The notes below the pieces were generated by a model that was not told the origin of the DNA, did not search any database, and saw nothing but the letters and a program-made list of their open reading frames with translations. From a virus, in IMG/VR virus record IMGVR_UViG_3300001505_000001: a stretch of DNA of 64,000 bases; one strand, written 5' to 3'. Below, piece by piece: positions 11,844 to 53,218 of the stretch (positions are counted from its first letter, which is position 1; each line of letters opens with the position of its first letter). A program made the position numbers and the translations under genes.

Positions 11844-11969
11844 ATGACAAGCAATCCAAAATGCTCTAATTGTAACGGGCAAACTAAACATATAGACACA
11901 GACGAATACGAATGTGTTTATTGCGGTTGTGTTCTTGATGAATATGGAGATGTTATTCATGAGATATAA
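11844..11969 (+). CDS. small zinc-ribbon protein (41 aa, CxxC...CxxC)
   Basis: SD ggaaggtg plus ATG. Two CxxC pairs. Overlaps the HNH start by 11 nt. Confidence 0.35.
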   Translation: MTSNPKCSNCNGQTKHIDTDEYECVYCGCVLDEYGDVIHEI

Positions 11970-12360
11970 AGTTTGTTCACATTGTGGCAGAAGATACGAT
12001 GCAAACAAACAATGTATTTGTCAAGTAAATAATTCAAATGAATATAGTAAACAATATTATGAACAAAACAAAGAACGTAAAAAACAATTAAACAGTAAGC
12101 GTTGGAAAACTTTAAGAGAGAGAATTATTAAAAGAGACGGTGGAATGTGTAACAGATGTTGGGTAAGTCTTAATGTTATAGAAACAAAAGATTTACAAGT
12201 ACACCATATCAAACCACGTTCTGAATATCCAGAGTTAATGTATGACCCAAACAACTTAATAACAGTTTGTAAAACATGTAACCTTGCATTAGGAACAAAA
12301 GGTAGTTTAGATTGGGAAGTACAAAAGTTTAATGAAGATATTGACGAACTAAGATTATAA
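11959..12360 (+). CDS. HNH endonuclease (packaging-associated)
   Basis: CxxC ... HHIKPRSEYPELMYDPNNLITVCKTCN, an HNH motif with a Zn knuckle, immediately upstream of terS. SD ggagatg before the ATG at 11959. Confidence 0.8.
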   Translation: MRYKVCSHCGRRYDANKQCICQVNNSNEYSKQYYEQNKERKKQLNSKRWKTLRERIIKRDGGMCNRCWVSLNVIETKDLQVHHIKPRSEYPELMYDPNNLITVCKTCNLALGTKGSLDWEVQKFNEDIDELRL

Positions 12361-12378
12361 ATAAGGGGGGAAAAGGTA

Positions 12379-12888
12379 ATGTCAAGAGGTAGACCAAAAG
12401 CGCCAGCCCAACTTGTAGACCCAAGCAAAAACCATAGATATAATAAATCGCAAGTTGAACAAATGAAAAAATCAGAAGATGAATTAAAAGGCAAGTCTGA
12501 AAAAGTATCTGACATTCCGGAGTACCTATCAGACCTAGCTAAAGAATACTACTCTTTTATAGTTAATGAAATGGAAGTAAGTGGTGTTTTAAGTAATCTT
12601 GATATTCCAGTGGTCGTTCAGATTTCAGAAACGTTAGCGATTATAAGAGAGTGTGATGCTGATATTCAATTAGACGGATTGTGGTATTATGAACCAGACA
12701 GAAATGGTAGAGATGTTAAAAAGAAAAACCCTTCTGTCGATATTAGAGATAAAGCACTTAATCAATTTAAACAACTGGCTGTTCAATTAGGTATGACACC
12801 GTCATCAAGAAGTAGTTTAGCAGCAGCTAATATAGAAAAGCAAGAAAAAGAAGAAGACCCATTATTAAAAGTTCTTAATCAAAAATAA
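12379..12888 (+). CDS. terS: terminase small subunit (P27 family)
   Basis: N-terminus MSRGRPKAP, the hallmark of P27-family TerS. Position between HNH and TerL. Confidence 0.75.
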   Translation: MSRGRPKAPAQLVDPSKNHRYNKSQVEQMKKSEDELKGKSEKVSDIPEYLSDLAKEYYSFIVNEMEVSGVLSNLDIPVVVQISETLAIIRECDADIQLDGLWYYEPDRNGRDVKKKNPSVDIRDKALNQFKQLAVQLGMTPSSRSSLAAANIEKQEKEEDPLLKVLNQK

Positions 12889-12987
12889 TATAAGACCGTC
12901 ATTTGATTGTAAAAGACTACGGACACTAAGTCAATTAGGTTTAGAGGTGTCCATATACATATTAAAACTTGAAAGGAAGTCGTTCCC

Positions 12988-14496
12988 ATGACCTTTTTAG
13001 ATAATTTAATTAATGAAGATAATAAAACAGTTACAACAAACGGAGAAAATGGTTATAAATCTACTTTAAGCGGTATTTTAGATTTATCAACTGAAATTGG
13101 AAATAGTAGATTTTTAAATATAGATGATTTAACAGATTTAATGATTGAAGCAAGAGATGAAGATTTTTTATTATATTCTAAATTAATCGCATATGCAAGA
13201 GACGTTCGTCAAGGCGGGGGAGACAAACGTTTAGGTCGTTTAGGTTTTGTTGATATATTTGACAATATTAATATAAATAAAATTCCGTTTTTAGTTACTT
13301 TAATATCAGAGTACGGAAGTTACAAAGATGTGGTTCTTTTATTGTTAGCGCCAGTTAGAAACAAGGATAAAAAGAGAGTATTAGCACAACATTTAAATAA
13401 TATCTTAGATTCAGATGATACCAATGAACAAGTTAGTTTATTAGCTAAATATATGCCAACAGAAACTACTAAAGATGAAGACATGAAATTTGCATATAGA
13501 GAATTTATGAAGTATGTAGATATTACACCTAAAGAATATCGTAAAAGAAACACACGAATCAGAAAGAAACTAGACATTGTAGAAACTAAGTTAACTGAAA
13601 AACGTTATGAAGATATTGACTATTCTCGTGTTCCGTCACAAGCTAATTTGAAATATAGAGACGCTTTTATTAGAAATGACAAAGAGCGTTACACAGATTA
13701 TTTAGAAAAAGTAGATTCTGGAGAAGAAAAAATAAATAGCGGAACTCTCGCTCCTTATCAAATTGTAGACAAAGTGCGTTATAGTAATAGTTCTTCATTA
13801 AATACTCTATGGAATAATATTCCTGCGCCAACTAACAACGGATTAGAGATTCTACCTGTAGTTGACGTTTCTGGTTCTATGTATGGACTACCAATGGACG
13901 TAGCAGTTTCTTTAGGAATATTTTTATCAGAACATAACAAAGGTCAATTTAAAGACCATTTTATCACATTCTCTAATGAACCAGAATTGAAAAAAATTAA
14001 AGGTAATACTATTCGTGATAAAGTATCTAGTGTTGAATCTTCTAATTGGGGTATGAATACAGATTTAGAAAAAACATTTGATTTAATATTAAAAACAGCA
14101 ATTAACAATGATTTAACACAAGAAGAGTTACCAAAATCATTACTTATTATTTCAGATATGCAATTTGACGAAGCTACAACTGGTGGTTTTTTCGCATCAG
14201 ATGTACCAAAACCAGATGACACATTCTTTGAAAAAATGAAACATAAGTTTAAACAACATGGATATAAATTACCGTTTATAGTATTTTGGAATGTAGGATA
14301 TGGTAACACTAAACCTGTAGTTAAAACAACTAAAAATACAATTTTAGTATCTGGTTTTAGTCAAAACATATTTAACAGTATTTGTAATCTAGACCTAGAT
14401 GATTTAGAAAAATATACACCACTTAAAGCATTATTAGAAATTTTAGAATCAGATAGATATAAAGCGATAGAGGGCTTATATCAAACAACGGATTAA
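12988..14496 (+). CDS. Ro60/Rsr-like TROVE-vWA protein
   Basis: C-terminal vWA with MIDAS VVDVSGSM (Ro60: LAVDVSASM), FITFSNE (Ro60 VVAFSDE), LLIISDMQFDEATTGG (Ro60 IVFTDNETFAGG), C-terminal VSGFSQNIFNSI (Ro60 MCGFDTGALDVI). N-terminal TNGENGYKSTL resembles Ro60 NSQDGYVWQV. Assigned from remembered Ro60 motifs, no search run. Confidence 0.55.
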   Translation: MTFLDNLINEDNKTVTTNGENGYKSTLSGILDLSTEIGNSRFLNIDDLTDLMIEARDEDFLLYSKLIAYARDVRQGGGDKRLGRLGFVDIFDNININKIPFLVTLISEYGSYKDVVLLLLAPVRNKDKKRVLAQHLNNILDSDDTNEQVSLLAKYMPTETTKDEDMKFAYREFMKYVDITPKEYRKRNTRIRKKLDIVETKLTEKRYEDIDYSRVPSQANLKYRDAFIRNDKERYTDYLEKVDSGEEKINSGTLAPYQIVDKVRYSNSSSLNTLWNNIPAPTNNGLEILPVVDVSGSMYGLPMDVAVSLGIFLSEHNKGQFKDHFITFSNEPELKKIKGNTIRDKVSSVESSNWGMNTDLEKTFDLILKTAINNDLTQEELPKSLLIISDMQFDEATTGGFFASDVPKPDDTFFEKMKHKFKQHGYKLPFIVFWNVGYGNTKPVVKTTKNTILVSGFSQNIFNSICNLDLDDLEKYTPLKALLEILESDRYKAIEGLYQTTD

Positions 14497-14760
14497 TTTC
14501 CGTTGATACATATTAAAGACACTTACAGCAATCTTATTAATTCAATTTTACGGCTATTTAAAATGATTATGTGTCTTGTTTATTTTATATAAAAGTCTCT
14601 TACAGCAAATTTAATTGGATAAAGATATTTTTTAGATAATATAATACTATGTTGAGACTTGTTTATATTTTAAAAGGACGTACAGCAAACTTTTATTAAA
14701 AAACATGGGAACGTTTTTCGACTTGTCCTTTGATACATATTTTTTAAGGAGGAATATGGA
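14497..14760 (+). repeat. Intergenic direct repeats: CTTACAGCAA x3 (14522, 14599, 14679) and a ~43-nt repeat (14568-14612 and 14651-14694). Flanking ttgatacatatt at 14503 and 14733.
   Basis: Direct reading. Spacing 77 and 80 nt. No ORF. Confidence 0.7.
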
Positions 14761-15939
14761 ATGAATGAATATTTAAAACGCGATGAGGAAAGTATAACAT
14801 CTTATTGGATAAGATTATACAAAAACAGACAATCTTATGGACTAACATTTAAAGAATGTGGTCAGCTTATGAATGAAGTAACAGGAGAAAATTGGAACGA
14901 AGCAAAATGGCGTCGTGAAATGGAAGGCTATCTTAAAGTATCTAGCTATTTACAAGAAGAAAACCCCACAGGAATTAACACAGAACAATTAGAAGAAATC
15001 CAATCAGAGAAATTAGAGCTTGAAAAAGAAAAAATAAAAATGAGAGACCAGAAGCGTGAAATGCGTAATACTCTTAGACAAATGGCTCGTTTAGAACATT
15101 TAGTGGATTACGTTGAATCTGCAACAGAAACATTAGAACCATTTGAACTGCCTGTAGAAAACAAAGATAGAACTAGTGACAGAGAAGCTATGGTAGTTAT
15201 TTCTGATTGGCATTTAGGAATGAATATAGATAGTCAATTTAATAGATTTAATGAAGATGTAGCACGATACAGAATCACTAAGTTAAAGCAGAAAACATAT
15301 GAAAAAGTAATTAAAGACGACATACAGAGATTGCATATAGCTAACTTAGGCGATTTAATTCATGGTGCTATACACGTATCGACTAGAATCCAAAGTGAAG
15401 AGGATGTTATTCAGCAAGTTATAAGAGCTTCTGAATATCTGAAAGACTTTATTGGAGATTTTTTGAAATTAGGCATTGTTGTTAAGTATTATAATGTTAT
15501 AGGAAATCATGGTCGTGTATCTCCTAATAAACAAGACGTGGCAGGAATAGAAGAGAACTTTGAAAAACTTATTTTAACTATATTAGACACAGCATTTAGT
15601 TCTCAATTAAACTATACGTCTTTTGATTCTAAGGACGGTCTTATTGAAACTACAATAAAAGGACATAAAGGCGTATTAGTACACGGAGACTACGATAAAG
15701 GCGCAAGTATTGTTGCTAAGTTACCACAGTTATTAGGATATGTTCCAGATTTTGTTATAGGTGGACATTTCCACAGAGAATCAATTATGGATTATGGTAA
15801 GACAACATGTATTACTAATGGTTCTTTATGTGGTAGCGATGATTACGCAATACAAATGAGATTAGGTGGAAAACCTAGTCAAAAATATTTAACTTTCACT
15901 GATGAAGGTATTGAAGAAAATAATACGATTTATCTATAA
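14761..15939 (+). CDS. SbcD/Mre11-like calcineurin-type metallophosphoesterase with extra N-terminal domain
   Basis: Motifs VISDWHLG (I), LGDLIHG (II), GNHG (III), HGDYD, GGHFH, the canonical metallophosphatase set with an SbcD-like DWHLG. Confidence 0.7.
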   Translation: MNEYLKRDEESITSYWIRLYKNRQSYGLTFKECGQLMNEVTGENWNEAKWRREMEGYLKVSSYLQEENPTGINTEQLEEIQSEKLELEKEKIKMRDQKREMRNTLRQMARLEHLVDYVESATETLEPFELPVENKDRTSDREAMVVISDWHLGMNIDSQFNRFNEDVARYRITKLKQKTYEKVIKDDIQRLHIANLGDLIHGAIHVSTRIQSEEDVIQQVIRASEYLKDFIGDFLKLGIVVKYYNVIGNHGRVSPNKQDVAGIEENFEKLILTILDTAFSSQLNYTSFDSKDGLIETTIKGHKGVLVHGDYDKGASIVAKLPQLLGYVPDFVIGGHFHRESIMDYGKTTCITNGSLCGSDDYAIQMRLGGKPSQKYLTFTDEGIEENNTIYL

Positions 15940-15949
15940 GAATGACCTT

Positions 15950-15985
15950 ATGGGACAACTCATTTGAGAATGTCCCTTTTTTACT
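15950..15985 (+). terminator. terminator hairpin gggacaactcatttgagaatgtccc plus T6
   Basis: Stem-loop followed by ttttttactttg after the stop of 14761-15939. Confidence 0.5.
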
Positions 15986-16169
15986 TTGTTAAAATTACTT
16001 TTACTTATATTGGGATAATTAACGTGATTATCTTTGCGTCTAAAAGTCAACAAGACAAAATGGCGACCATATAGGTAAGAGTATTTTTAAGAGGGTAAAA
16101 CCTCGATTTCCTTATTCATATTCATTCATAATAATTTCTCCGAGAGGGCTTTGCCCTCTTGTTGATTAA

Positions 16170-16243
16170 CAGAATGTAGTTCAATTTGGTAGAATACCAT
16201 ATTTGGGATGTGGTGGTTGTTGGTTCAAATCCAGCCATTCTGA
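16170..16243 (+). tRNA. tRNA-Pro (anticodon TGG), CCA not encoded
   Basis: Hand-folded cloverleaf: acceptor cagaatg/cattctg, TA, D-arm gttc-aatttggta-gaat, anticodon stem ccata/tgtgg with loop ttTGGga, variable tggtt, T-arm gttgg-TTCAAAT-ccagc, discriminator A. Confidence 0.6.
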
Positions 16244-16573
16244 TACTGTCTTTTTGGAGTAGCCACCGTTTCACAGTTTTTAAAACGATAACTTTTTTTA
16301 GATGGCTACATATACATAATAAAATGTGGATTATATGTCCTCCTATTCTAACTCTGAGACTGTGAGATAGTAGCTTAAACTAGCTATTTAAGTGAATGTA
16401 AGAAATAGGTTAAAAACTAAATTCTCAAAGTGGCTTATTGAGTGCTTTTGTTGCTATAGAAAAATGGTAACGAAAGAACAAAGGGTAGTTTGAAATGGTT
16501 TGAGCCCTTTATACATATATGTCTGCTCTGCGGAGTATTGAGAGTGGAATCTTTATGGAAGAGGAAGCTCGAA

Positions 16574-16632
16574 CTCACTCTAGTTCTTTAAGTAGAACAA
16601 AGGCATTGGTTTGAATCCAATGTAAGAGTGAG
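16574..16632 (+). ncRNA. tRNA-like / Y-RNA-like structured element (8-bp closing stem ctcactct/agagtgag, hairpin gttct-ttaagt-agaac, T-arm-like cattgg-TTTGAAT-ccaatg)
   Basis: Three-way junction with a T-arm close to tRNA consensus GGTTCGAATCC. Lacks a full D/anticodon architecture. Directly upstream of the terL RBS. Confidence 0.35.
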
Positions 16633-16657
16633 ATTACATATAAGGAGATGGTAGATT

Positions 16658-17251
16658 ATGATTGATAATTATATAATTGAACATCCATCTTATCAATATG
16701 CTTTATCAGTAGTTAATGATGAAATTATTTCTGGAAAGTATATCAAAAAGGAATGTCAACGTTTCTTAGATGAATTAGAAAACGAAGACAGTCCATACTT
16801 TTTAGAATTAAAAACATTAAAACTAATAGATGATTTAACAAAGTTACTCAACATGGCTGACGGAATGAAAATTGGTAAAAGTGTTAATGAATCATTAGCA
16901 CCTTTTCAATGGTATTTCTTAGTCAACGCTTTATGTTGGAAATACAAGAACAACCCAGAAAAAAGACGTTATGAAAAATCAACATTACTAATTGCTCGTA
17001 AATCAGGAAAGAGTTTTTTAGTAGCTTTGATTTTTATATTATTGTTGCTACTAGAACCTAAAAATTCAGAGTTCTATTCAGTAGCACCAGACAGAGAACT
17101 TTCTTCAATTGTAAAAAAAGAAATAGGTAAAATGATTGAAGCAAGCCCAGCAATTTCTGATAAGTTTAAAGTTATTAAATCAGAAGTAACTTGTCTTTTA
17201 AACAATAGTAAAATGATTGCATTGGCTACATCTGATAATCGGATGGACGGT
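16658..17251 (+). CDS. terL: terminase large subunit, exon 1 (ATPase domain, Walker A ARKSGKS)
   Basis: TerL N-terminal domain. Reading frame runs into a stop 24 nt into the intron. Exon ends ...RMDG at a U. P1 pairing GACGGU with intron GCCGUC at 17263-17268. Confidence 0.75.
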
Positions 17252-18185
17252 AACTCAACTTACTGCCGTCGTTAAATCGGGCAAAATCGGTGGAAAACTT
17301 TGACAATGTCTATATTTTATGATATTATATTATTAGGAGGTTAATAATATGTTTGGATATATTTATAAAACGACTAATAATATAAATGGAAAAATATATA
17401 TAGGCAAAAAGCACAGCAGCTCTTTTATTAAGGATTATTATGGAAGTGGAAAACTTATAAACAGAGCTATTGATAAGTATGGCATAGAGAATTTTAGTGT
17501 AGAGATAATAGAAGAATGTGAAACATTAGAAGAACTTAATTTAAAAGAAAAATATTATATAAAACATTTAGAATCTAATTATAAACTAGGTAAAGGATAT
17601 AATATTGCTTCTGGTGGAGATGGTGGTAATATAATCAGTTTATTACCAGAAATTGACTATAATTCCTTTATTCTTGATTGTAAAAGGAGAGCAAAAGGAA
17701 AAAATAATCCTAACTATGGAAATGGTTATAAAATATCTGGAAACAATAATCCATCTAAAAGACCTGAGGTTAGAGAAAAATTAAGTAAAGCTACTAGTGG
17801 AAAAAACAATCCAATGTATGGCAAAAAAGGAAAATTAAGTCATAGATATGGAACAAAACATTCCGAAGAAACAAAGAACAAAATAAAAGAATCTCTAAAA
17901 AATAAAGTATATAAAAAAATCTGTAAGAATTGTAACAGAGAATTTGATACTAAATATGCTAGAACTACATATTGCAGTGCTGATTGTAAAAGAAAATACC
18001 GAGATAACCATAATAAATAAAAATATTATGGTATTGTAACGCATAGGAATTGAACCTATGTTTTTTTATTAGCATAGAATATAATATTCCCACGAGGGTC
18101 CGACAGTAATATACTGAAAATGTATGCTGAACTATATGGCGACATATAGAAGTGATTGATAAAAAACTATCACGATAACAAAATG
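17252..18185 (+). mobile_element. group I intron in terL carrying a GIY-YIG homing endonuclease
   Basis: Exon halves rejoin as RMDG-RKANVFVADEVG (Walker B). P1 helix with U.G at the 5' splice site. Terminal G at 18185. Exact 3' boundary is 18185 or 18188. Confidence 0.6.
17349..18020 (+). CDS. GIY-YIG homing endonuclease (intron-encoded) with NUMOD3-like repeats
   Basis: GYIYKTTNNINGKIYIGKK (GIY...YIG), conserved R, NPxYG-type C-terminal DNA-binding repeats, C-terminal CxxC Zn finger. Strong SD ggagg. Confidence 0.8.
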   Translation: MFGYIYKTTNNINGKIYIGKKHSSSFIKDYYGSGKLINRAIDKYGIENFSVEIIEECETLEELNLKEKYYIKHLESNYKLGKGYNIASGGDGGNIISLLPEIDYNSFILDCKRRAKGKNNPNYGNGYKISGNNNPSKRPEVREKLSKATSGKNNPMYGKKGKLSHRYGTKHSEETKNKIKESLKNKVYKKICKNCNREFDTKYARTTYCSADCKRKYRDNHNK

Positions 18186-19301
18186 AGGAAAGCCAATGTC
18201 TTTGTAGCTGATGAAGTTGGAGCACTCAAAAACAGATACCCAATTGAAGCAATGGAATCATCTCAAATGAATATGATTAATAGAACAGGTATTCTTATAT
18301 CTACTGCTTATGATAGCACAGATAATCCAATGGTACAAGAAGTAGAGTATGCAGAAAAAGTATTAGATGGTTTGATTGATGACGATAGTTATTTTGCTAT
18401 GTTATTCAAACCAGATGATGTAAGAGATTGGATGTCAGATAAAACGTTATATGAATCTAATCCTTTATGTTACACTGTACCTGCTAACTATGATTATTTA
18501 GTTAAGAAAAGAAACAAAGCATTAGAAATGTCTGATGCTAAATCTAACTTTTTAACTAAACATTTAAACATATTTATTGACGGAGATATTGAAGAATCAT
18601 TTGTTACTATAGATGATTTAAGACAAGGAAAAATAGCAGAAGAAGATTTTGATTGGAATGGCAGAGAAGTTTATTTAGGCATCGACTTAGCTGAAACTGT
18701 CGACAACACTGCTGTTTCAATGGTTTATTATGATAATGATAAAGATAAGTTTTATACAAAATGTTGGTCGTTTATTCCACAAGAGAAAGCGACAGAAAAA
18801 TCAAAAAGAGAACGTATTAATTATTTCTTAATGCGTGACAAAGGTTGGGCTTTTTTATGTGGAGATAGAGTAATAAGCCAACGTTTTGTTGAAGATTACG
18901 TATTAGGAATAGAAAAAAAGTATAATGTTATAGTAAAAGGTATCGGATATGATAGACGTAATGCAATATCATCTGTAAATAGATTTATAGATGAAGGAGA
19001 TTACGAGTGTATAGAAGTAAGACAAAATAGTTCGTCGCTTGGTCCGACATTTAAAATGATGAGAGATTATATTATAGATGGCAATTTCCTTTACCAAGAA
19101 AATGAACTTTTAGAAAACAACTATAAAAATGCACGAATAACATATGATACTACAATGAATATATATGTCAATAAAAAGAAAAGTGCCGGTAAAATAGATG
19201 GTGTCTATGCTACAGCAGACGCAATGTATTTATGGAAACAAGATATTGACGACGGATTATTGGCAAGTAGTTTTGAAGATAGGGGATTATTTATTTTGTA
19301 A
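18186..19301 (+). CDS. terL: terminase large subunit, exon 2 (Walker B VFVADE plus nuclease domain)
   Basis: Continuation of TerL. In-frame stop TGA at 18153-18155 upstream excludes an independent start earlier. Combined protein about 569 aa. Confidence 0.7.
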   Translation, partial: RKANVFVADEVGALKNRYPIEAMESSQMNMINRTGILISTAYDSTDNPMVQEVEYAEKVLDGLIDDDSYFAMLFKPDDVRDWMSDKTLYESNPLCYTVPANYDYLVKKRNKALEMSDAKSNFLTKHLNIFIDGDIEESFVTIDDLRQGKIAEEDFDWNGREVYLGIDLAETVDNTAVSMVYYDNDKDKFYTKCWSFIPQEKATEKSKRERINYFLMRDKGWAFLCGDRVISQRFVEDYVLGIEKKYNVIVKGIGYDRRNAISSVNRFIDEGDYECIEVRQNSSSLGPTFKMMRDYIIDGNFLYQENELLENNYKNARITYDTTMNIYVNKKKSAGKIDGVYATADAMYLWKQDIDDGLLASSFEDRGLFIL

Positions 19302-44779: not shown

Positions 44780-44867
44780 ATGGTGGCAACTTTAACGCAT
44801 AAAGAAGCCGTAGAATATGTTAAATCATTAGAAGGAAAATATGTTGACTTTGATGGTTGGTATGGGT
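44780..44867 (+). CDS. endolysin exon 1 (CHAP domain N-terminus, MVATLTHKEAVEYVKSLEGKYVDFDGWYG)
   Basis: Aligns to phi11-type endolysin [29 protein letters not shown]. Exon ends at a U with P1 AUGGGU/GCCCAU (intron 44877-44882). Confidence 0.65.
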
Positions 44868-45184
44868 TAATTGGTAGCCCATGTAAAACTTTTTGAATTG
44901 CTGGAAACCCCTAACGTAAAGACGAGGGCAATCAGCAGCGAAGCTCACATGGTAACAGTGTGTGAACGTTCAACGACTATGTACTATCAATTGATAGGCA
45001 GCGGAAAGCGTTTGACAAATATATACTCCTGTGATATAATGTTTTAATATGAAAATTTTGTCAAATAATGATATAGTCTGGTCTCATATGAAAATATGAG
45101 GCTTTCTTTATGAAAGCTATTAAATGTTATACAATATTATATAGAAATATATAATAGGAAAGGCATTTAATAAAACAAAAAACG
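44868..45184 (+). mobile_element. group I intron 1 in the endolysin gene (no ORF)
   Basis: Stop 9 codons into the intron. P1 helix with U.G. P7-like gttcaacgacta motif at 44967-44978. Terminal G at 45184. Exons rejoin as WYG-YQCFDLANKYW (phi11: WYGFQCFDYANAGW). Confidence 0.6.
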
Positions 45185-46662: not shown

Positions 46663-47505
46663 ATACACAATGATGCCGGAAGTAAATATGCTACAGCAGA
46701 AGCTTATCGTAATGGATTAGTTAATGCTCCATTATCAAGACTTGAAGCCGGTATTGCGCATGCTTACGGCTCCGGTAATACAATTTGGCAAGCATTAGAT
46801 AAATTACAAGTAGGCTGGCACACAGCAAATCCTGTTGGTAACAACGGTTATTATGGTTATGAAGTTTGTCAATCTATGGGTGCAGATGACAAAACATTCT
46901 TAGCAAATGAACAACTAGTATTCCAAGATGCTGCTAGACTTTTAAAAGAAGAAGGACTACCAGCAAACAGAAATACTGTTCGTCTACATTGTGAATTTGT
47001 TCGTACTTCATGTCCACATAGAAGTGCTAAACTACACACAGGATTTGACCCTGTTACTCAAGGTTTATTACCTAAAGACAAACAGTTACAATTAAAAGAT
47101 TATTTCATTAAACAAATCAGACAATATATGGATGGTAAAATACCTACTGCAACAGTTGTTAAAAGTACAAGTGCTTCTAGTAACACTGTTAAACCAGTAG
47201 CATCTGGTTGGAAACGTAATAATTACGGCACTTATTATAAATCAGAAAATGCAACTTATAGCAATGGTAACACACCAATTATCACACGTACAGTAGGACC
47301 ATTTAGAAGCTGTCCTCAAGCAGGATTGTTACCAGCTGGAGCAACTATTGTATATGATACAGTTTGTTTACAAGACTATCATGTTTGGGTAAGTTATGTA
47401 ACTAACAAAGGTTACAGAGTATGGCTACCTATTAGAACATGGAATGGTGTAGCTCCTGGAAACGCAGGATATGCTGTAGGACCATTATGGGGATATATCA
47501 GCTAA
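46663..47505 (+). CDS. endolysin exon 3 (amidase_2 domain plus SH3b cell-wall binding domain)
   Basis: [33 protein letters not shown] ... GWHTAN ... CPHRS ... [10 protein letters not shown], near-identical architecture to phi11 endolysin. Total spliced length 480 aa. Confidence 0.7.
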
Positions 47506-50523: not shown

Positions 50524-50557
50524 ATTATATAATAAAAAGAAAAGTCCTGTCAAGGAC
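50524..50557 (-). promoter_or_regulatory. Terminator-promoter module C: hairpin gtccTGTCAAggac. On the minus strand TTGACA (50553-50548) -18- TATAAT (50529-50524).
   Basis: Hairpin overlaps the Pnkp stop codon. Consensus promoter serving the guanylate kinase gene. Confidence 0.5.
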
Positions 50558-52857
50558 TAATCTTGTGTTTCTTTGTAATAATCATTTCTTAAAGTAATAA
50601 TGTCATTCTCTAAACATTCTTTATCTTGTTGTTTCGCCCAATAGTAGAAATTAGTAAGCGTTTTGTCTTTTTGTAAAATCGCTTGAATAGGTCTTCTCTG
50701 TAAATTGCCTTTTGATAATGATTCTACTAAGCTACGCATATATTTCCAGTTATTATAATATGGTGTTTTATATTTTAACATAAAGCCACTATTATCCTCA
50801 AACACAAACCCCTCTATTGCAATTGAGCTGTCTCTTTCCAAATCTTTATAGAAATTAAACAAATCATTCCAATTAGAGAAAGAAAAATGAGGTGTAGATA
50901 TATTTTTATCAATACCAATAATATTTACTGCAACGTAAACAAGAGTTTCATTAAATAATTTGTTGAATTTAAGAGTATTATCAATAGCGTCTAATAAAAC
51001 CACTCTTCTTTTACCTGCCTCATAGATAATATGTGGGTCATTAATGTTGTCTATTACCTCAAACAGCAGTGTTCTATTCATGTCTTTTAAATACTCTTTT
51101 GCAGATTCAATTTGCTCATTATTCCATGTTTCTTCAACAATTTCTTTAAATAATAAAGCAAAATCATTATCATATTGTGATAAATGAGTTCTTGATTTAC
51201 TAGCATAAATTAACTTATCTCGATTACTATCATAAAACATTAATCCTAAGAATCCATTATATTTTAATGAAGCAGTAACTGGGAATTTTAAAGTGTCGGG
51301 CAAATTCTCTAAATTGGTCTCGGGTCTTTCATTAATATTGAAAAATTTATTATAACCTCTGCCAACAATTTCATTCGTGCTTTCATCAATAAACAATCCT
51401 CTAGCAGTAACAGATAATTGATTCCAATGTTTTCTTTTAAATGCTCTTTTAGTGAAGTTCACAGATACTACATTATCATATTGTGGAACTACTTTAATAT
51501 ATTTATCTTCTTTTGCAAGTCTTAAATACTCTTCAACTGTTAAATTGGTGTCAATATCTTTTGTATAATCATTATTTAATAGAAATTTGGAATTAAATAT
51601 TTCATTTTTAATTTCGTGTGGCGTTAAAGTATTATCACTATTAATTGTAACAGCTCTTAAGGAACCACCTTTTTCAACTCTGCCTTCTAAATTGATAGAT
51701 TGTTTTGTTATATTTAATGGTTCTCTATAAAGATTTCTGTGTCCATGAATTTGTATAGTGTCTGAATTTTCCCATTGTTCATCAATTTGATATTCATATC
51801 CACCTACGCCATTAATAATTTGATGTGTAGATACTAAATTAATATCATCTAACATATTAGGCAAAATACCACCATGATTAATCATATAGTATTGACCTTT
51901 GTAATTAAAGTATAACATTTGTTGTAAACTATGAACGATACGTCTTACTCTTTTTTGACTAACACCATAATTCAAAAATTCTTTAAGAGTAGGAACAAAC
52001 CCTCTAGCATGAAACAATTCTATTGCAGTATCAAAAAATGTTTCATTTGTAGTATTTGAATCGTCTAATGCGTTATTTAATTTTAGATATTTATCTTCAT
52101 CTAAAAAAGCGTATCTTCTTAAATGTTTTTCATGATTACCTTCCAACAATACTACATTAGGTTGTTTGTAAATTAGTTCTAAATAGTCAAACATCTCTTT
52201 GGTTTCTAAACCTCTATCAAAGTAATCTCCAACAAAAATAAATAGTTCATTTGGATTATCAATAATTTTTTGGTAACTTGCAAATTGATTAATTGCTGTA
52301 AAGCATGAGTGAATATCTCCAATAACATGTATTTTATCATAATTGTCGGTATCAAGGAAGTCTTTATCCCATTTAATCTCATTCATTAATTTATTTGGTT
52401 TAATTTCTGTAGCATAACTAGGGATATGTTCATGCTGTAATCTTTCATAAATATTATAAATTACTTCTTCTGGAACTTTCTTTAACTCTTCTCTTTGGTT
52501 ATTGCGTTCAATTAATGTGTCTAAATCTTGTTCAACAGTTACTACATAAGTACGATAACGATATTTACGTGCTAATGTTTCATATTTTTTAATTAATTTT
52601 CCTGTAGAATGTGTAGCGTCAATAACAGTAAAATCCCCATTAATCATCCTTTCTTCAAGAATTTCCATTAGATTATCCCAAACTTGATTATCGTGTTTTT
52701 GTGAGATAACTCTCATTCCTTGTTCATTATACACAGGGCTTGTGTGCATTTGTCTAAGTTCATCTGGAGATATTGTGTATGGCTCTAAACCATTCTCCTT
52801 AATAAAAGTAGACTTACCAGCCCCTGGTACGCCTCTCATTAATACTAATTGTTTCAT
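50557..52857 (-). CDS. Pnkp-like RNA-repair enzyme: polynucleotide kinase (P-loop) plus calcineurin-type phosphoesterase plus C-terminal ligase-like nucleotidyltransferase domain
   Basis: GVPGAGKST (kinase P-loop). GDIHSC, GDYFDRG, GNHE (metallophosphatase motifs I-III). C-terminal domain with lysine motif KYNGF (KxDG-like). SD aaaggag before MKQLVLMRG (ATG at 52857; the track ORF starts 12 codons earlier). Confidence 0.6.
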   Translation of the reverse strand: MKQLVLMRGVPGAGKSTFIKENGLEPYTISPDELRQMHTSPVYNEQGMRVISQKHDNQVWDNLMEILEERMINGDFTVIDATHSTGKLIKKYETLARKYRYRTYVVTVEQDLDTLIERNNQREELKKVPEEVIYNIYERLQHEHIPSYATEIKPNKLMNEIKWDKDFLDTDNYDKIHVIGDIHSCFTAINQFASYQKIIDNPNELFIFVGDYFDRGLETKEMFDYLELIYKQPNVVLLEGNHEKHLRRYAFLDEDKYLKLNNALDDSNTTNETFFDTAIELFHARGFVPTLKEFLNYGVSQKRVRRIVHSLQQMLYFNYKGQYYMINHGGILPNMLDDINLVSTHQIINGVGGYEYQIDEQWENSDTIQIHGHRNLYREPLNITKQSINLEGRVEKGGSLRAVTINSDNTLTPHEIKNEIFNSKFLLNNDYTKDIDTNLTVEEYLRLAKEDKYIKVVPQYDNVVSVNFTKRAFKRKHWNQLSVTARGLFIDESTNEIVGRGYNKFFNINERPETNLENLPDTLKFPVTASLKYNGFLGLMFYDSNRDKLIYASKSRTHLSQYDNDFALLFKEIVEETWNNEQIESAKEYLKDMNRTLLFEVIDNINDPHIIYEAGKRRVVLLDAIDNTLKFNKLFNETLVYVAVNIIGIDKNISTPHFSFSNWNDLFNFYKDLERDSSIAIEGFVFEDNSGFMLKYKTPYYNNWKYMRSLVESLSKGNLQRRPIQAILQKDKTLTNFYYWAKQQDKECLENDIITLRNDYYKETQD

Positions 52858-52870
52858 AATAATTTCTCCT

Positions 52871-53218
52871 TTATTTTTTAATGTATACATCATATTTAGT
52901 ATCTAATTCTCTATAACCTGTTAGGAAATAGAGTTTACTTTTCTTTGATACTGTATATATTGTTTTCTTTACATAACTTTTATTACTCTCATGTACTTTC
53001 ACATCAACAGAAGATACTGCTGCTGTCTCATTAAATTGTTCTGTTGAAATTACTGTGCTATTACTTTCTCTTAAAGCTACTGCTTTAGGTAAATATAAAA
53101 TGAGTATTAATGTTATAAAACCTACAGTAGCTAAAATATAAAATAAATTATTAGACCTAGTTATACCTATATAAAATGATACCACTGTTAAAACTAAAAT
53201 AATAAAATTAAAAACCAT
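52871..53218 (-). CDS. membrane protein (115 aa, 2 TM)
   Basis: N-terminal hydrophobic helices. Confidence 0.45.
   Translation of the reverse strand: MVFNFIILVLTVVSFYIGITRSNNLFYILATVGFITLILILYLPKAVALRESNSTVISTEQFNETAAVSSVDVKVHESNKSYVKKTIYTVSKKSKLYFLTGYRELDTKYDVYIKK

What the first reader, a model, noticed from the sequence alone, without database searches (positions are those of the whole stretch)
12988..16640. Ro60/Rsr-like TROVE-vWA gene inside the packaging operon, with candidate Y-RNA-like or tRNA-like non-coding elements nearby
ORF 12988-14496 shows several colinear motif matches to Ro60 family proteins. These are the MIDAS VVDVSGSM, FITFSNE, LLIISDMQFDEATTGG, the C-terminal VSGFSQNIF, and the N-terminal NGENGYKSTL. 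Cellular Ro60/Rsr works with Y RNAs, which contain tRNA-like modules and are usually encoded within a few kb of rsr. The surrounding DNA has three such candidates. First, a 264-nt ORF-free spacer (14497-14760) carries three CTTACAGCAA repeats and a ~43-nt direct repeat. Second, there is a bona fide tRNA-Pro at 16170-16243. Third, a 59-nt three-way-junction element (16574-16632) has a near-consensus T-arm (GGTTTGAATCC) and an 8-bp closing stem. An SbcD-like phosphoesterase lies in the same block, and a Pnkp-like kinase/phosphatase/ligase sits at 50557-52857. Together these suggest the phage carries an RNA surveillance and repair toolkit, possibly to counter tRNA- or rRNA-targeting defences. The block is inserted between terS and terL, which is an unusual place for cargo.
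Basis: partly seen in the sequence, partly recalled or inferred. Interest (0 to 1): 0.8.

Follow-up and report, generated by a model that had tools for sequence, protein, structure and literature searches.

The report
Phage Ro60-like protein with Y-like RNAs
This Staphylococcus phage carries a ring-shaped RNA-binding protein of the Ro60 type followed by three copies of a small structured RNA that travels with this gene family across hundreds of phages and bacteria, is not described in the RNA databases, and closely resembles an orphan class of small RNAs known so far only from social amoebae.

Summary

They form three tandem ~60-nt units at 14516-14578, 14593-14661 and 14673-14732. Each unit is a 7-8 bp terminal stem that differs in sequence between units yet stays complementary, followed by the invariant ACAGCAA and a variable loop.

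A covariance model finds this unit beside DUF2828 genes in 60 of 80 distant phage loci and about 71 of 80 bacterial loci. All hits lie on the gene strand, at a median of 76 nt from the gene (phage loci). The model finds nothing in Sextaecviruses that lack the gene, nor in the phage T5 tRNA region. Some relatives carry the motif inside YrlA-type tRNA-like Y RNAs.

The unit also matches, below threshold, Dictyostelium Class I RNA, whose signature is CCUUACAGCAA.

tRNA-Pro is real but linked only by context. The 59-nt element is a real structure that is independent of the gene.

Verdict: a divergent Ro60/Y-RNA-type system with an apparently undescribed RNA family.

The parts
12988..14496 (+). Ro60-fold RNA-binding protein gene (Pfam DUF2828 + DUF7788; PHROG 850 'RNA-binding protein'): N-terminal helical-repeat ring plus C-terminal vWA domain with a complete MIDAS motif (D293, S295, S297, T358, D390).
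14516..14578 (+). Y-like RNA unit 1. Terminal stem AAGACAC (14516-22) pairs with GTGTCTT (14571-77). CUUACAGCAA lies at 14522-31. Variable AU-rich loop, then a 3' G.
   Evidence: Model R1: 47.6 bits, E 3e-10. Rfam Dicty_Class_I_RNA aligns over its full length: 22.1 bits, E 0.058. Stem found.
14593..14661 (+). Y-like RNA unit 2. Terminal stem AAGTCTC (14593-99) pairs with GAGACTT (14654-60). CUUACAGCAA lies at 14599-608.
   Evidence: Model R1: 40.7 bits, E 2.2e-8. Rfam Dicty_Class_I_RNA: 18.8 bits, E 0.41.
14673..14732 (+). Y-like RNA unit 3. Terminal stem AAAGGACG (14673-80) pairs with TGTCCTTT (14724-31). CGUACAGCAA lies at 14679-88.
   Evidence: Model R1: 35.2 bits, E 7e-7. The stem differs from those of units 1 and 2 on both strands.
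16170..16243 (+). tRNA-Pro(UGG). This is context, not a specific partner. Across phages this gene family sits in or next to tRNA arrays on the same strand.
   Evidence: In the 80 phage loci, 54 have a tRNA within 5 kb and 360 of 364 tRNAs are on the gene strand. No particular tRNA identity is enriched next to the gene.

Best explanation
The gene encodes a highly divergent member of the Ro60 structural class: a ring of helical repeats closed by a vWA/MIDAS domain. The three tandem ~60-nt units immediately downstream are its cognate small RNAs, the equivalent of bacterial Y RNAs (YrlA/YrlB).

Each unit pairs its 5' and 3' ends in a 7-8 bp helix. It presents the invariant single-stranded ACAGCAA immediately 3' of the 5' strand. 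That is the position where canonical Y RNAs carry the GNCGAA/GGUCCGA motif that Ro60 contacts.

Inferred steps:
1. The units are co-transcribed with the gene as part of the terS-to-terL operon and cut out of the transcript.
2. They are bound by the ring through the helix plus ACAGCAA.
3. The variable or tRNA-like part of the RNA then gates the ring, or tethers another factor to it. By analogy with Rsr-YrlA-PNPase, that factor would be a 3'-5' exoribonuclease.
4. This would give the phage a device for handling structured RNAs (tRNA or rRNA surveillance, or capture of a host nuclease) during infection.

Shown here: the fold; the RNA family and its structure; and the tight, strand-specific, reciprocal linkage between gene and RNA across phages and bacteria.

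Inferred, not shown: expression and processing of the units, physical binding, and the downstream function.
For: Protein:
- The only full-length structural matches are Ro60 proteins.
- The MIDAS residues are invariant.

RNA structure:
- On 343 unselected ACAGCAA sites, a closing stem of >=8 bp occurs 115 times, against 19.9+-3.6 when the 5' strands are swapped among sites.
- This was replicated in an independent bacterial set: 138 against 29.3+-4.0.
- All 8 stem pairs show double changes.

Linkage of gene and RNA:
- ACAGCAA occurs 374 times on the gene strand and 54 times on the other. It peaks within 500 nt of the gene.
- Model R1 gives 153 hits in 60 of 80 phage loci, all on the gene strand, with the nearest unit a median of 76 nt from the gene.
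- R1 gives 179 hits in about 71 of 80 bacterial-genome loci that were not in the seed, all on the gene strand.
- Non-seed phages Listeria A511, mycobacteriophage LeBron, a Felix-O1-like phage, and relatives at 57-61% protein identity all carry units next to the gene.
- Reverse test: of 120 loci pulled out by the RNA pattern alone, 62 hold the gene. All 62 are on the same strand, at a median of 213 nt.

Negative controls:
- Sextaecviruses without the gene have no hit at E<=1.
- The T5 tRNA region (25 tRNAs, no gene) has no hit.
- In the 64-kb window the only hits better than E 0.2 are the three units; the next best is the reverse strand of unit 1 (E 0.23).

Bridge to Y RNAs:
- In L282 and in LeBron, RNAs with the same terminal stem plus (A/G)CAGCAA contain the T arm, acceptor-like hairpin and D arm in YrlA order.
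- These match Rfam YrlA at 39.3 and 39.8 bits (E 6.5e-7 and 1.2e-6).
- Twenty such YrlA-type units were counted across the phage and bacterial loci.

Transcription context:
- In LeBron the three units are followed by an intrinsic terminator.
- In SEP9 and CF1 a homing endonuclease gene was inserted after the units and left them intact.
Against: - No sequence-level match to TROVE or to any Ro60 chain.
- The RNA motif is ACAGCAA, not the canonical Ro-binding motif.
- The window's own units lack any tRNA-like module, and their loops are AU-rich with little predicted structure.
- No expression, processing or binding data exist.
- In most loci the units lie upstream of the gene (124 of 150), which is also what a cis-acting leader would look like.
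- In 17 of 42 well-flanked loci retrieved by the RNA motif, the gene was not within the held stretch.
- R1 was built partly from units chosen for having stems. Its seed statistics are therefore partly circular. The swap tests and the independent sets are not.
Confidence: 0.7

Rival explanations
1. The ACAGCAA units are cis-acting elements of the mRNA: autoregulatory binding sites, stabilisers or processing signals in the leader or trailer of the DUF2828 gene. On this reading they are not free small RNAs.
For: - Units abut the gene (median 76 nt) and usually lie upstream of it (124 of 150 phage hits; nearly all bacterial hits).
- In the window no promoter or terminator separates them from the flanking genes.
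Against: - Arrays of up to 7-8 units occur (L282).
- Units occur either upstream or downstream of the gene.
- Some are full YrlA-type or tRNA-embedded RNAs with acceptor, D and T arms.
- Units are also scattered inside tRNA arrays several kb from the gene.
- The look-alike Dictyostelium Class I RNAs are abundant, free 42-65-nt RNAs (PMC7919456).
Confidence: 0.15
2. The units are part of tRNA-array biology rather than partners of the protein. They would be processing punctuation, or mini-tRNA or anticodon-arm decoys (for example against host anticodon nucleases). The gene would be merely a frequent resident of tRNA regions.
For: - 54 of 80 phage loci have tRNAs within 5 kb on the same strand.
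- 37 of 129 distinct units contain a 5-bp stem with a 7-nt loop matching the anticodon-loop pattern CU-NNN-RN, against 3.9+-2.0 in shuffles. The loop triplets include UUU, GUU and CAU.
- Some motifs are embedded in tRNA-like scaffolds.
Against: - tRNA arrays without the gene lack the units: T5 with 25 tRNAs and TPWB06 with 5 tRNAs.
- The window and LeBron have units flush against the gene. The only tRNA in the window is 1.4 kb away, and none is annotated within 4 kb in LeBron.
- The bacterial loci show arrays directly upstream of the gene.
Confidence: 0.1
3. The protein is not an RNA-binding Ro60 analogue. It would be a vWA/MIDAS scaffold with a packaging- or assembly-related role, as its position between terS and terL might suggest. 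The resemblance to Ro60 would be a generic helical solenoid plus vWA.
For: - No sequence similarity to Ro60.
- TM-scores are only 0.5-0.62.
- The location is inside the packaging operon.
Against: - The position next to terminase genes is peculiar to Sextaecvirus and is absent in the 80 distant phage loci.
- Sextaecviruses package without this gene.
- A structured RNA co-inherited with the gene, sometimes of YrlA type, is hard to explain otherwise.
Confidence: 0.05

Closest known systems
Bacterial Ro60 (Rsr) with YrlA/YrlB Y RNAs; phage phiLo Ro60 with Yrl1/Yrl2
   Same: - Ring of helical repeats plus a vWA/MIDAS domain.
- Small RNAs are encoded within a few hundred nt on the same strand, often in more than one copy.
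- The RNA pairs its two ends and carries a conserved motif on the 5' side of that helix.
- Some relatives of the window RNA have the YrlA-type permuted tRNA-like domain.
- Phage-encoded examples are already known (PMC4201824, PMC12135203).
   Different: - No detectable sequence homology to TROVE.
- The RNA signature is ACAGCAA rather than GNCGAA(N)G or CGAA.
- The units in this phage are minimal (~60 nt, no tRNA-like domain).
- Units are tandemly arrayed, up to 8 copies.
- They fall below the Rfam YrlA threshold, or are not detected at all.
Dictyostelid Class I RNAs (Rfam RF01414)
   Same: - About 60 nt, with a short helix joining the 5' and 3' ends.
- A conserved motif lies directly 3' of the 5' strand. 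The Rfam consensus is CCUUACAGCAA, and window units 1 and 2 read CUUACAGCAA.
- The rest of the RNA is variable and AU-rich. The 3' end is CUG in Dictyostelium and CUUG here.
- There are many paralogous copies with compensatory stem changes.
- The positions reported as most conserved in Dictyostelia (C6, C9, A10, A11; PMC7919456) are also the ones kept in phage variants such as GCAGCAA.
- The Rfam model aligns end to end.
   Different: - Scores (18.8-29.2 bits) are below the gathering score of 41.5.
- Class I RNAs are eukaryotic Pol-transcribed genes with a DUSE promoter and are dispersed in the genome.
- Their only proven partner is the RRM protein Rnp1A/CIBP.
- They were reported as unique to Dictyostelia (PMC7919456).
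- Whether Dictyostelium encodes a DUF2828 protein could not be tested here.
'RNA-binding protein' / 'Ro-like RNA binding protein' / 'vWFA protein' annotations in phage genomes (PHROG 850)
   Same: This is the same protein family. tblastn finds it in 710 of 50,697 phage records, including 6ec, A511/P100, Felix-O1-like phages, KVP40-like phages and cluster L mycobacteriophages.
   Different: Those annotations name only the protein. No RNA partner is annotated in any of the records inspected.

Membership tests
Ro60 / TROVE-vWA proteins | Sequence match to the TROVE domain profile (Pfam PF05731) or to Ro60 chains | tested here: not met
   No TROVE hit for the window protein at E<=0.01. None for any of 44 family members at E<=10. 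phmmer and a profile HMM against the PDB find no Ro60 chain.
Ro60 / TROVE-vWA proteins | Fold: helical-repeat ring closed by a C-terminal vWA domain | tested here: met
Ro60 / TROVE-vWA proteins | MIDAS motif (DxSxS ... T ... D) in the vWA domain | tested here: met
   D293, S295, S297, T358 and D390 are invariant in 44 diverse homologs.
Ro60 / TROVE-vWA proteins | Y-type RNA encoded nearby on the same strand | tested here: met
   Three units lie 20-236 nt after the stop codon. Family-wide linkage is shown. YrlA-type versions occur in relatives.
Ro60 / TROVE-vWA proteins | The RNA carries the canonical Ro-binding motif (GGUCCGA / GNCGAAN0-1G) | tested here: not met
   The invariant motif is ACAGCAA. 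In the YrlA alignment it occupies the place of the canonical motif.
Ro60 / TROVE-vWA proteins | Physical binding of Y RNA and of misfolded RNA 3' ends in the ring | not testable with these tools
   Requires biochemistry or a solved structure.
DUF2828 + DUF7788 (PF11443, PF25043; PHROG 850) | Profile matches above the curated cut-offs | tested here: met
   DUF7788: 169.6 bits (cut-off 27.1). DUF2828: 98.8 bits (cut-off 29). PHROG 850: E 4.6e-134.
YrlA (Rfam RF02553) | Covariance-model score at or above the gathering score (69 bits); permuted tRNA-like domain | tested here: not met
   No hit in the window at E<=10. Relatives reach 39.3 bits (L282) and 39.8 bits (LeBron) and have T, acceptor-like and D arms.
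Dictyostelid Class I RNA (Rfam RF01414) | 42-65 nt, terminal 5'/3' stem, 11-nt motif CCUUACAGCAA next to the 5' strand, variable remainder | tested here: met
   The units are 60-69 nt with 7-8 bp terminal stems. The motif matches 10 of 11 positions in units 1 and 2 and 9 of 11 in unit 3.
Dictyostelid Class I RNA (Rfam RF01414) | Covariance-model score at or above the gathering score (41.5 bits) | tested here: not met
   22.1 and 18.8 bits in the window. 29.2 and 21 bits in L282.
Dictyostelid Class I RNA (Rfam RF01414) | Expressed as an abundant stable small RNA; DUSE promoter | not testable with these tools
   No expression data are available. A eukaryotic promoter element does not apply to a phage.
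tRNA | Cloverleaf and anticodon, score above threshold | tested here: met
   16170-16243 is tRNA-Pro(UGG). ARAGORN. Rfam 62.2 bits against a threshold of 29.

The most novel reading that the evidence does not exclude
The stem-ACAGCAA RNAs next to DUF2828 genes in phages and bacteria, and the orphan Class I RNAs of dictyostelid amoebae, are one ancient RNA family. Both would be the Y-RNA-type ligands of a second, unrecognised branch of Ro60-like ring proteins (DUF2828/DUF7788) that spans viruses, bacteria and eukaryotes.

If so, Class I RNAs are not unique to Dictyostelia. Their unknown function would then become directly testable as a Ro-like RNP.
Probability: 0.3. Interest if true: 0.9.

Novelty: new variant of a known kind. 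Interest (0 to 1): 0.78.

Why it matters
Ro60/Y-RNA particles are a long-studied but functionally puzzling RNA-surveillance system.

- **A second protein branch.** These results define a second, sequence-unrecognisable branch of that system. It is common in phages (710 of 50,697 records) and in gut Firmicutes.
- **A defined RNA ligand.** Its RNA ligand is easy to recognise, and a covariance model now finds it with no hits on the opposite strand.
- **Better annotation.** Hundreds of 'hypothetical' or 'vWFA' phage genes gain a concrete, testable partner. Many unannotated intergenic repeats in phage tRNA regions are explained.
- **A minimal binding site for biochemistry.** The proposed site is a helix plus single-stranded ACAGCAA.
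- **The host is informative.** In S. epidermidis, PNPase is used by type III-A CRISPR immunity, as noted in PMC12135203. A Ro-like RNP that captures PNPase could therefore act as a counter-defence.
- **A possible answer for Class I RNAs.** The match to Dictyostelium Class I RNAs, if it reflects homology, would give a function and an origin to a class of abundant eukaryotic RNAs that has had neither for twenty years.

Tried and rejected
1. **The 59-nt T-arm-like element as the Y RNA: rejected.** It belongs to a ~122-nt insert (16519-16640) flanked by TACATATA repeats. The insert is missing from 6ec, which has the gene, and present in F1, TPWB06 and PT1-4, which lack it.
2. **tRNA-Pro as a specific partner: rejected.** The tRNA nearest the gene varies across 54 loci, with no enrichment for any identity.
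3. **The phosphoesterase as a conserved partner: rejected.** It is found in only 2 of 80 distant loci. No protein-coding neighbour is shared by more than 7 of 80 loci.
4. **Pfam TROVE membership and PDB sequence searches:** negative.
5. **Rfam at gathering thresholds:** only tRNA, a group I intron and S808 in the window.
6. **The Dicty_Class_I_RNA hit:** I first dismissed the sub-threshold hit as chance. It was not.
7. **Folding the whole spacer:** no signal, because the units are separate hairpins with AU-rich loops.
8. **Promoter and terminator scan:** uninformative; 48 promoter-like sites against 48.7 expected.
9. **A simple >=6-bp stem count:** it had a 32% background at random positions, so it was replaced by partner-swap tests.
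10. **Literature searches** for DUF2828, DUF7788, ACAGCAA with phage and tRNA, and Class I RNA with Ro60/TROVE: nothing on this RNA or this link.
11. **Papers not held:** Burroughs & Aravind 2016, Sim et al. 2020 and Avesson et al. 2011. The supplement of Chen et al. 2014 listing phage YrlAs was not held either. Prior mention in those sources cannot be excluded.
12. **afdb50 fold search** (to ask whether Dictyostelium has a DUF2828 protein): not available.

Full report
**What the window is**

Region 12300-17300 is 97-98% identical to Staphylococcus epidermidis siphophages of the genus Sextaecvirus (PG-2021_5, vB_SepS_BE02, 6ec).

The local gene order is as follows:

| Coordinates | Feature |
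|---|---|
| 11914-12360 | HNH endonuclease |
| 12379-12888 | terS |
| 12988-14496 | the 502-aa ORF under study |
| 14497-14760 | 264-nt spacer |
| 14761-15939 | metallophosphoesterase |
| 16170-16243 | tRNA-Pro |
| 16658-17275 and 18156-19301 | terL, split by a GIY-YIG endonuclease gene |

Relatives annotate the ORF as 'RNA-binding protein' with a vWA-like domain.

**The protein**

- Pfam assigns DUF2828 (4e-28) plus DUF7788 (8e-50), not TROVE. PHROG 850 'RNA-binding protein' matches at 4.6e-134.
- None of 44 diverse homologs touches TROVE, even at E<=10.
- phmmer and a family profile find only vWA domains among PDB sequences.
- The AlphaFold2 model built on that alignment is confident (pLDDT 88.5, pTM 0.89).
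- Its ten best Foldseek matches in the PDB are all Ro60 proteins aligned over the whole length.
- The MIDAS residues are invariant.

Sequence-level TROVE membership is not met either. The protein is a Ro60-fold paralog family.

The family is large. tblastn finds it in 710 phage records, among them Felix-O1-like phages, Listeria A511/P100, KVP40-like phages, Campylobacter phages, and cluster L mycobacteriophages, where it is already called 'Ro-like RNA binding protein'. It is also found in at least 582 stretches of bacterial genomes.

**Genomic context of the family**

I examined 80 IMG/VR loci carrying homologs at 32-39% identity.

- No protein-coding neighbour recurs in more than 7 loci.
- The window's phosphoesterase recurs in only 2.
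- 54 of 80 loci have tRNA genes within 5 kb. Of these tRNAs, 360 of 364 are on the gene's strand.
- tRNA density falls with distance from the gene.

**The RNA**

Rfam's tRNA model reported over-long 'tRNAs' next to the gene in several loci. Inspection showed a small hairpin followed by ACAGCAA.

Distribution across the 80 loci:
- ACAGCAA occurs 374 times on the gene strand and 54 times on the other.
- 124 copies lie in the 500 nt upstream of the gene and 33 in the 500 nt downstream.

The recurring unit has four parts:
1. (A/U)AG-NNNNN, the 5' strand of the stem.
2. One or two further nucleotides, then ACAGCAA.
3. A variable stretch of 30-50 nt.
4. The complementary strand, ending CU(U/A)G.

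Evidence that the stem is real:
- The stem sequence differs from unit to unit but stays complementary.
- On 343 unselected sites, stems of >=8 bp occur 115 times, against 19.9+-3.6 when 5' strands are swapped between sites.
- In the independent bacterial set the figures are 138 against 29.3+-4.0.

**The covariance model**

Model R1 was built from 73 units. Its results:

| Searched | Result |
|---|---|
| The 64-kb window | The three units on the + strand (E 3e-10, 2e-8, 7e-7). Next best: the reverse strand of unit 1 (E 0.23) and a partial match inside the gene (E 3.5) |
| 6ec, CF1, SEP9 | Three units each after the gene; in CF1 and SEP9 an HNH gene is inserted after the intact units |
| Relatives at 57-61% protein identity | Three or four units, with different stems |
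| Listeria A511 | Two units just upstream of the gene |
| Mycobacteriophage LeBron | Units just downstream of the gene, followed by an intrinsic terminator |
| 80 phage loci | 153 hits, none on the opposite strand, in 60 loci; usually 2-3 tandem copies; nearest unit a median of 76 nt from the gene |
| 80 bacterial-genome loci (not in the seed) | 179 hits, all on the gene strand, in about 71 loci; nearly all within 1 kb upstream |

Controls:
- Sextaecviruses that keep terS, the phosphoesterase, tRNAs and terL but lack the gene (vB-SscS-F1, TPWB06, PT1-4) have no hit at E<=1.
- The T5 tRNA region (25 tRNAs, no DUF2828 gene) has none.

Reverse test: one exact stem-motif-stem pattern retrieved at least 120 IMG/VR loci. 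Of these, 62 contain the gene in the held stretch. All 62 are on the same strand, at a median of 213 nt. Among loci with at least 2.5 kb on both sides of the motif, 25 of 42 contain the gene.

**What kind of RNA it is**

Two known families frame it.

*Bacterial Y RNAs.*
- In bacterial locus L282, an RNA with the same terminal stem plus ACAGCAA contains a T arm, an acceptor-like hairpin and a D arm in the permuted order typical of YrlA. LeBron carries the same kind of RNA with the motif variant GCAGCAA.
- These RNAs hit Rfam YrlA over its full length at 39.3 and 39.8 bits (E 6.5e-7 and 1.2e-6). This is below the curated 69 bits.
- In those alignments ACAGCAA sits where YrlA has its GNCGAA motif. 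Chen et al. consider that motif the likely Ro60 contact (PMC4201824).
- A census finds 20 YrlA-type units, 28 tRNA-embedded units, 99 with only a T arm and 460 with none.
- 37 of 129 distinct units have an inner hairpin with a canonical anticodon-loop pattern, against 3.9+-2.0 in shuffles.
- The window's three units are of the minimal kind, comparable to YrlB.

*Dictyostelium Class I RNAs.*
- Rfam's Dicty_Class_I_RNA model has the consensus GaUcuCCUUACAGCAAUua...GagAuCUG.
- It aligns end to end with window units 1 and 2 (22.1 and 18.8 bits) and with L282 units (29.2 and 21 bits). All are below its 41.5-bit threshold.
- Class I RNAs are 42-65 nt long. They have a short 5'/3' stem, an 11-nt motif next to the 5' strand and a variable remainder.
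- Their function is unknown, and they were reported as unique to Dictyostelia (PMC7919456).
- No paper in the library links them to Ro60, TROVE or vWA proteins.
- I could not test whether Dictyostelium has a DUF2828 protein.

*tRNA-Pro.* It is genuine, but the tRNA nearest the gene varies across loci with no preference.

*The 59-nt element.*
- It folds well (z -3.9).
- It shows compensatory changes in all three helices across five phages.
- It sits in a ~122-nt segment bounded by TACATATA repeats. That segment is absent from 6ec, which has the gene, and present in three phages that lack it.
- It is therefore a separate structured element of the terL leader region, not a Y RNA.

*The phosphoesterase.* It belongs to a YonJ-like metallophosphoesterase family. 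Together with the tRNA block it is a genus-wide occupant of the terS-terL interval. Only the Ro60-like gene plus its units is the accessory insert.

*The Pnkp-like enzyme.* It is real: kinase, phosphoesterase and Rnl1-type ligase domains. It lies on the minus strand at 50557-52893.

**Mechanism**

Shown:
- A Ro60-fold protein.
- A structured RNA family with an invariant single-stranded heptamer beside a covarying helix.
- Reciprocal, strand-specific, close-range linkage of the two across very distant phages and bacteria.
- YrlA-type intermediates.

Inferred:
- The units are cut from the operon transcript.
- The ring binds them through the helix plus ACAGCAA.
- They modulate the ring or tether another factor to it. 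By analogy with Rsr-YrlA-PNPase and phiLo Ro60-Yrl-PNPase (PMC4201824, PMC12135203), that factor would be an exoribonuclease.

Which RNAs are the targets is open. So is whether the benefit to the phage is tRNA or rRNA quality control, or capture of a host nuclease used in defence.

**Novelty**

- The protein family and its 'Ro-like' label are already in the databases.
- Phage Ro60 with Y-like RNAs is a known kind.
- The stem-ACAGCAA RNA family is absent from Rfam 15 and from the literature I could search. So are its near-obligate linkage to DUF2828 genes and its resemblance to Class I RNAs.

Noticed in passing
Its presence varies among Sextaecviruses independently of the Ro60-like gene. All three helices of the junction show compensatory changes. 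In SEP9 an 'intron-associated endonuclease' gene follows it. It may be a leader element or a remnant of a mobile cassette.
   Followed up: partly
window 16658-19301: terL is split into 16658-17275 and 18156-19301 by an insertion carrying a GIY-YIG/NUMOD3 homing endonuclease (17349-18020). Rfam finds no group I intron there, even at E<=10. Relatives interrupt terL at other places, twice in the case of TPWB06, or not at all in SEP9.
   Followed up: partly
window 44858-45100 and 47061-47315: Rfam finds a group I intron (109 bits) and the Staphylococcus sRNA S808 (212 bits, full length) elsewhere in the phage genome.
   Followed up: no
window 50557-52893 (minus strand): A 778-aa Pnkp-type RNA repair enzyme with a P-loop kinase, a calcineurin-like phosphoesterase and an Rnl1-type RNA ligase domain.
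   Followed up: yes
window 14478-14513 and 14499-14514 / 14726-14741: A 7-bp hairpin (CAACGGA/TCCGTTG) spans the stop codon of the Ro60-like gene. A 16-nt direct repeat (TCCGTTGATACATATT / TCCTTTGATACATATT) brackets the three units. The second copy overlaps the 3' strand of unit 3. This may be the footprint of unit duplication or of a degenerate fourth unit.
   Followed up: no
L040 6533-6646, L064 6584-6702, L028 3950-4063 and 4555-4657, L018 4691-4816, L005 5850-5961: These are tRNA-like RNAs with normal acceptor, D and T arms. Their anticodon arm is replaced by a hairpin, then ACAGCAA, then a short anticodon-like hairpin (often with loop CUGUUAA). ARAGORN reads them as tRNAs with 13-41-nt 'introns'.
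   Followed up: partly
A3 alignment units, e.g. L026 4903-4963, L077 6757-6817: About 29% of distinct units contain a 5-bp stem with a 7-nt loop that mimics an anticodon arm. The loop triplets are mostly UUU, GUU, UGA, GCU, GCA and CAU. Several of these correspond to tRNAs attacked by known anticodon nucleases, which may be meaningful.
   Followed up: partly
L088 (Listeria phage A511) 6842-8053; clusters 7, 8, 9 and 16: RNA-related genes recur sporadically near the gene in other phages. A511 has RtcB ('tRNA splicing ligase') 1.3 kb downstream. Elsewhere, judged from the sequences by eye and not checked against any profile library, there appear to be RNA-ligase-like ORFs, a Thg1-like ORF and a cysteine desulfurase.
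   Followed up: no
L213 (phage T5) 10285-13950 and 20849-21567: The T5 tRNA region is annotated with eight stable RNAs of unknown function, some of them tRNA-like. None matches the ACAGCAA model, and T5 lacks the gene. This is a reminder that phage tRNA regions hold other unexplained small RNAs.
   Followed up: partly
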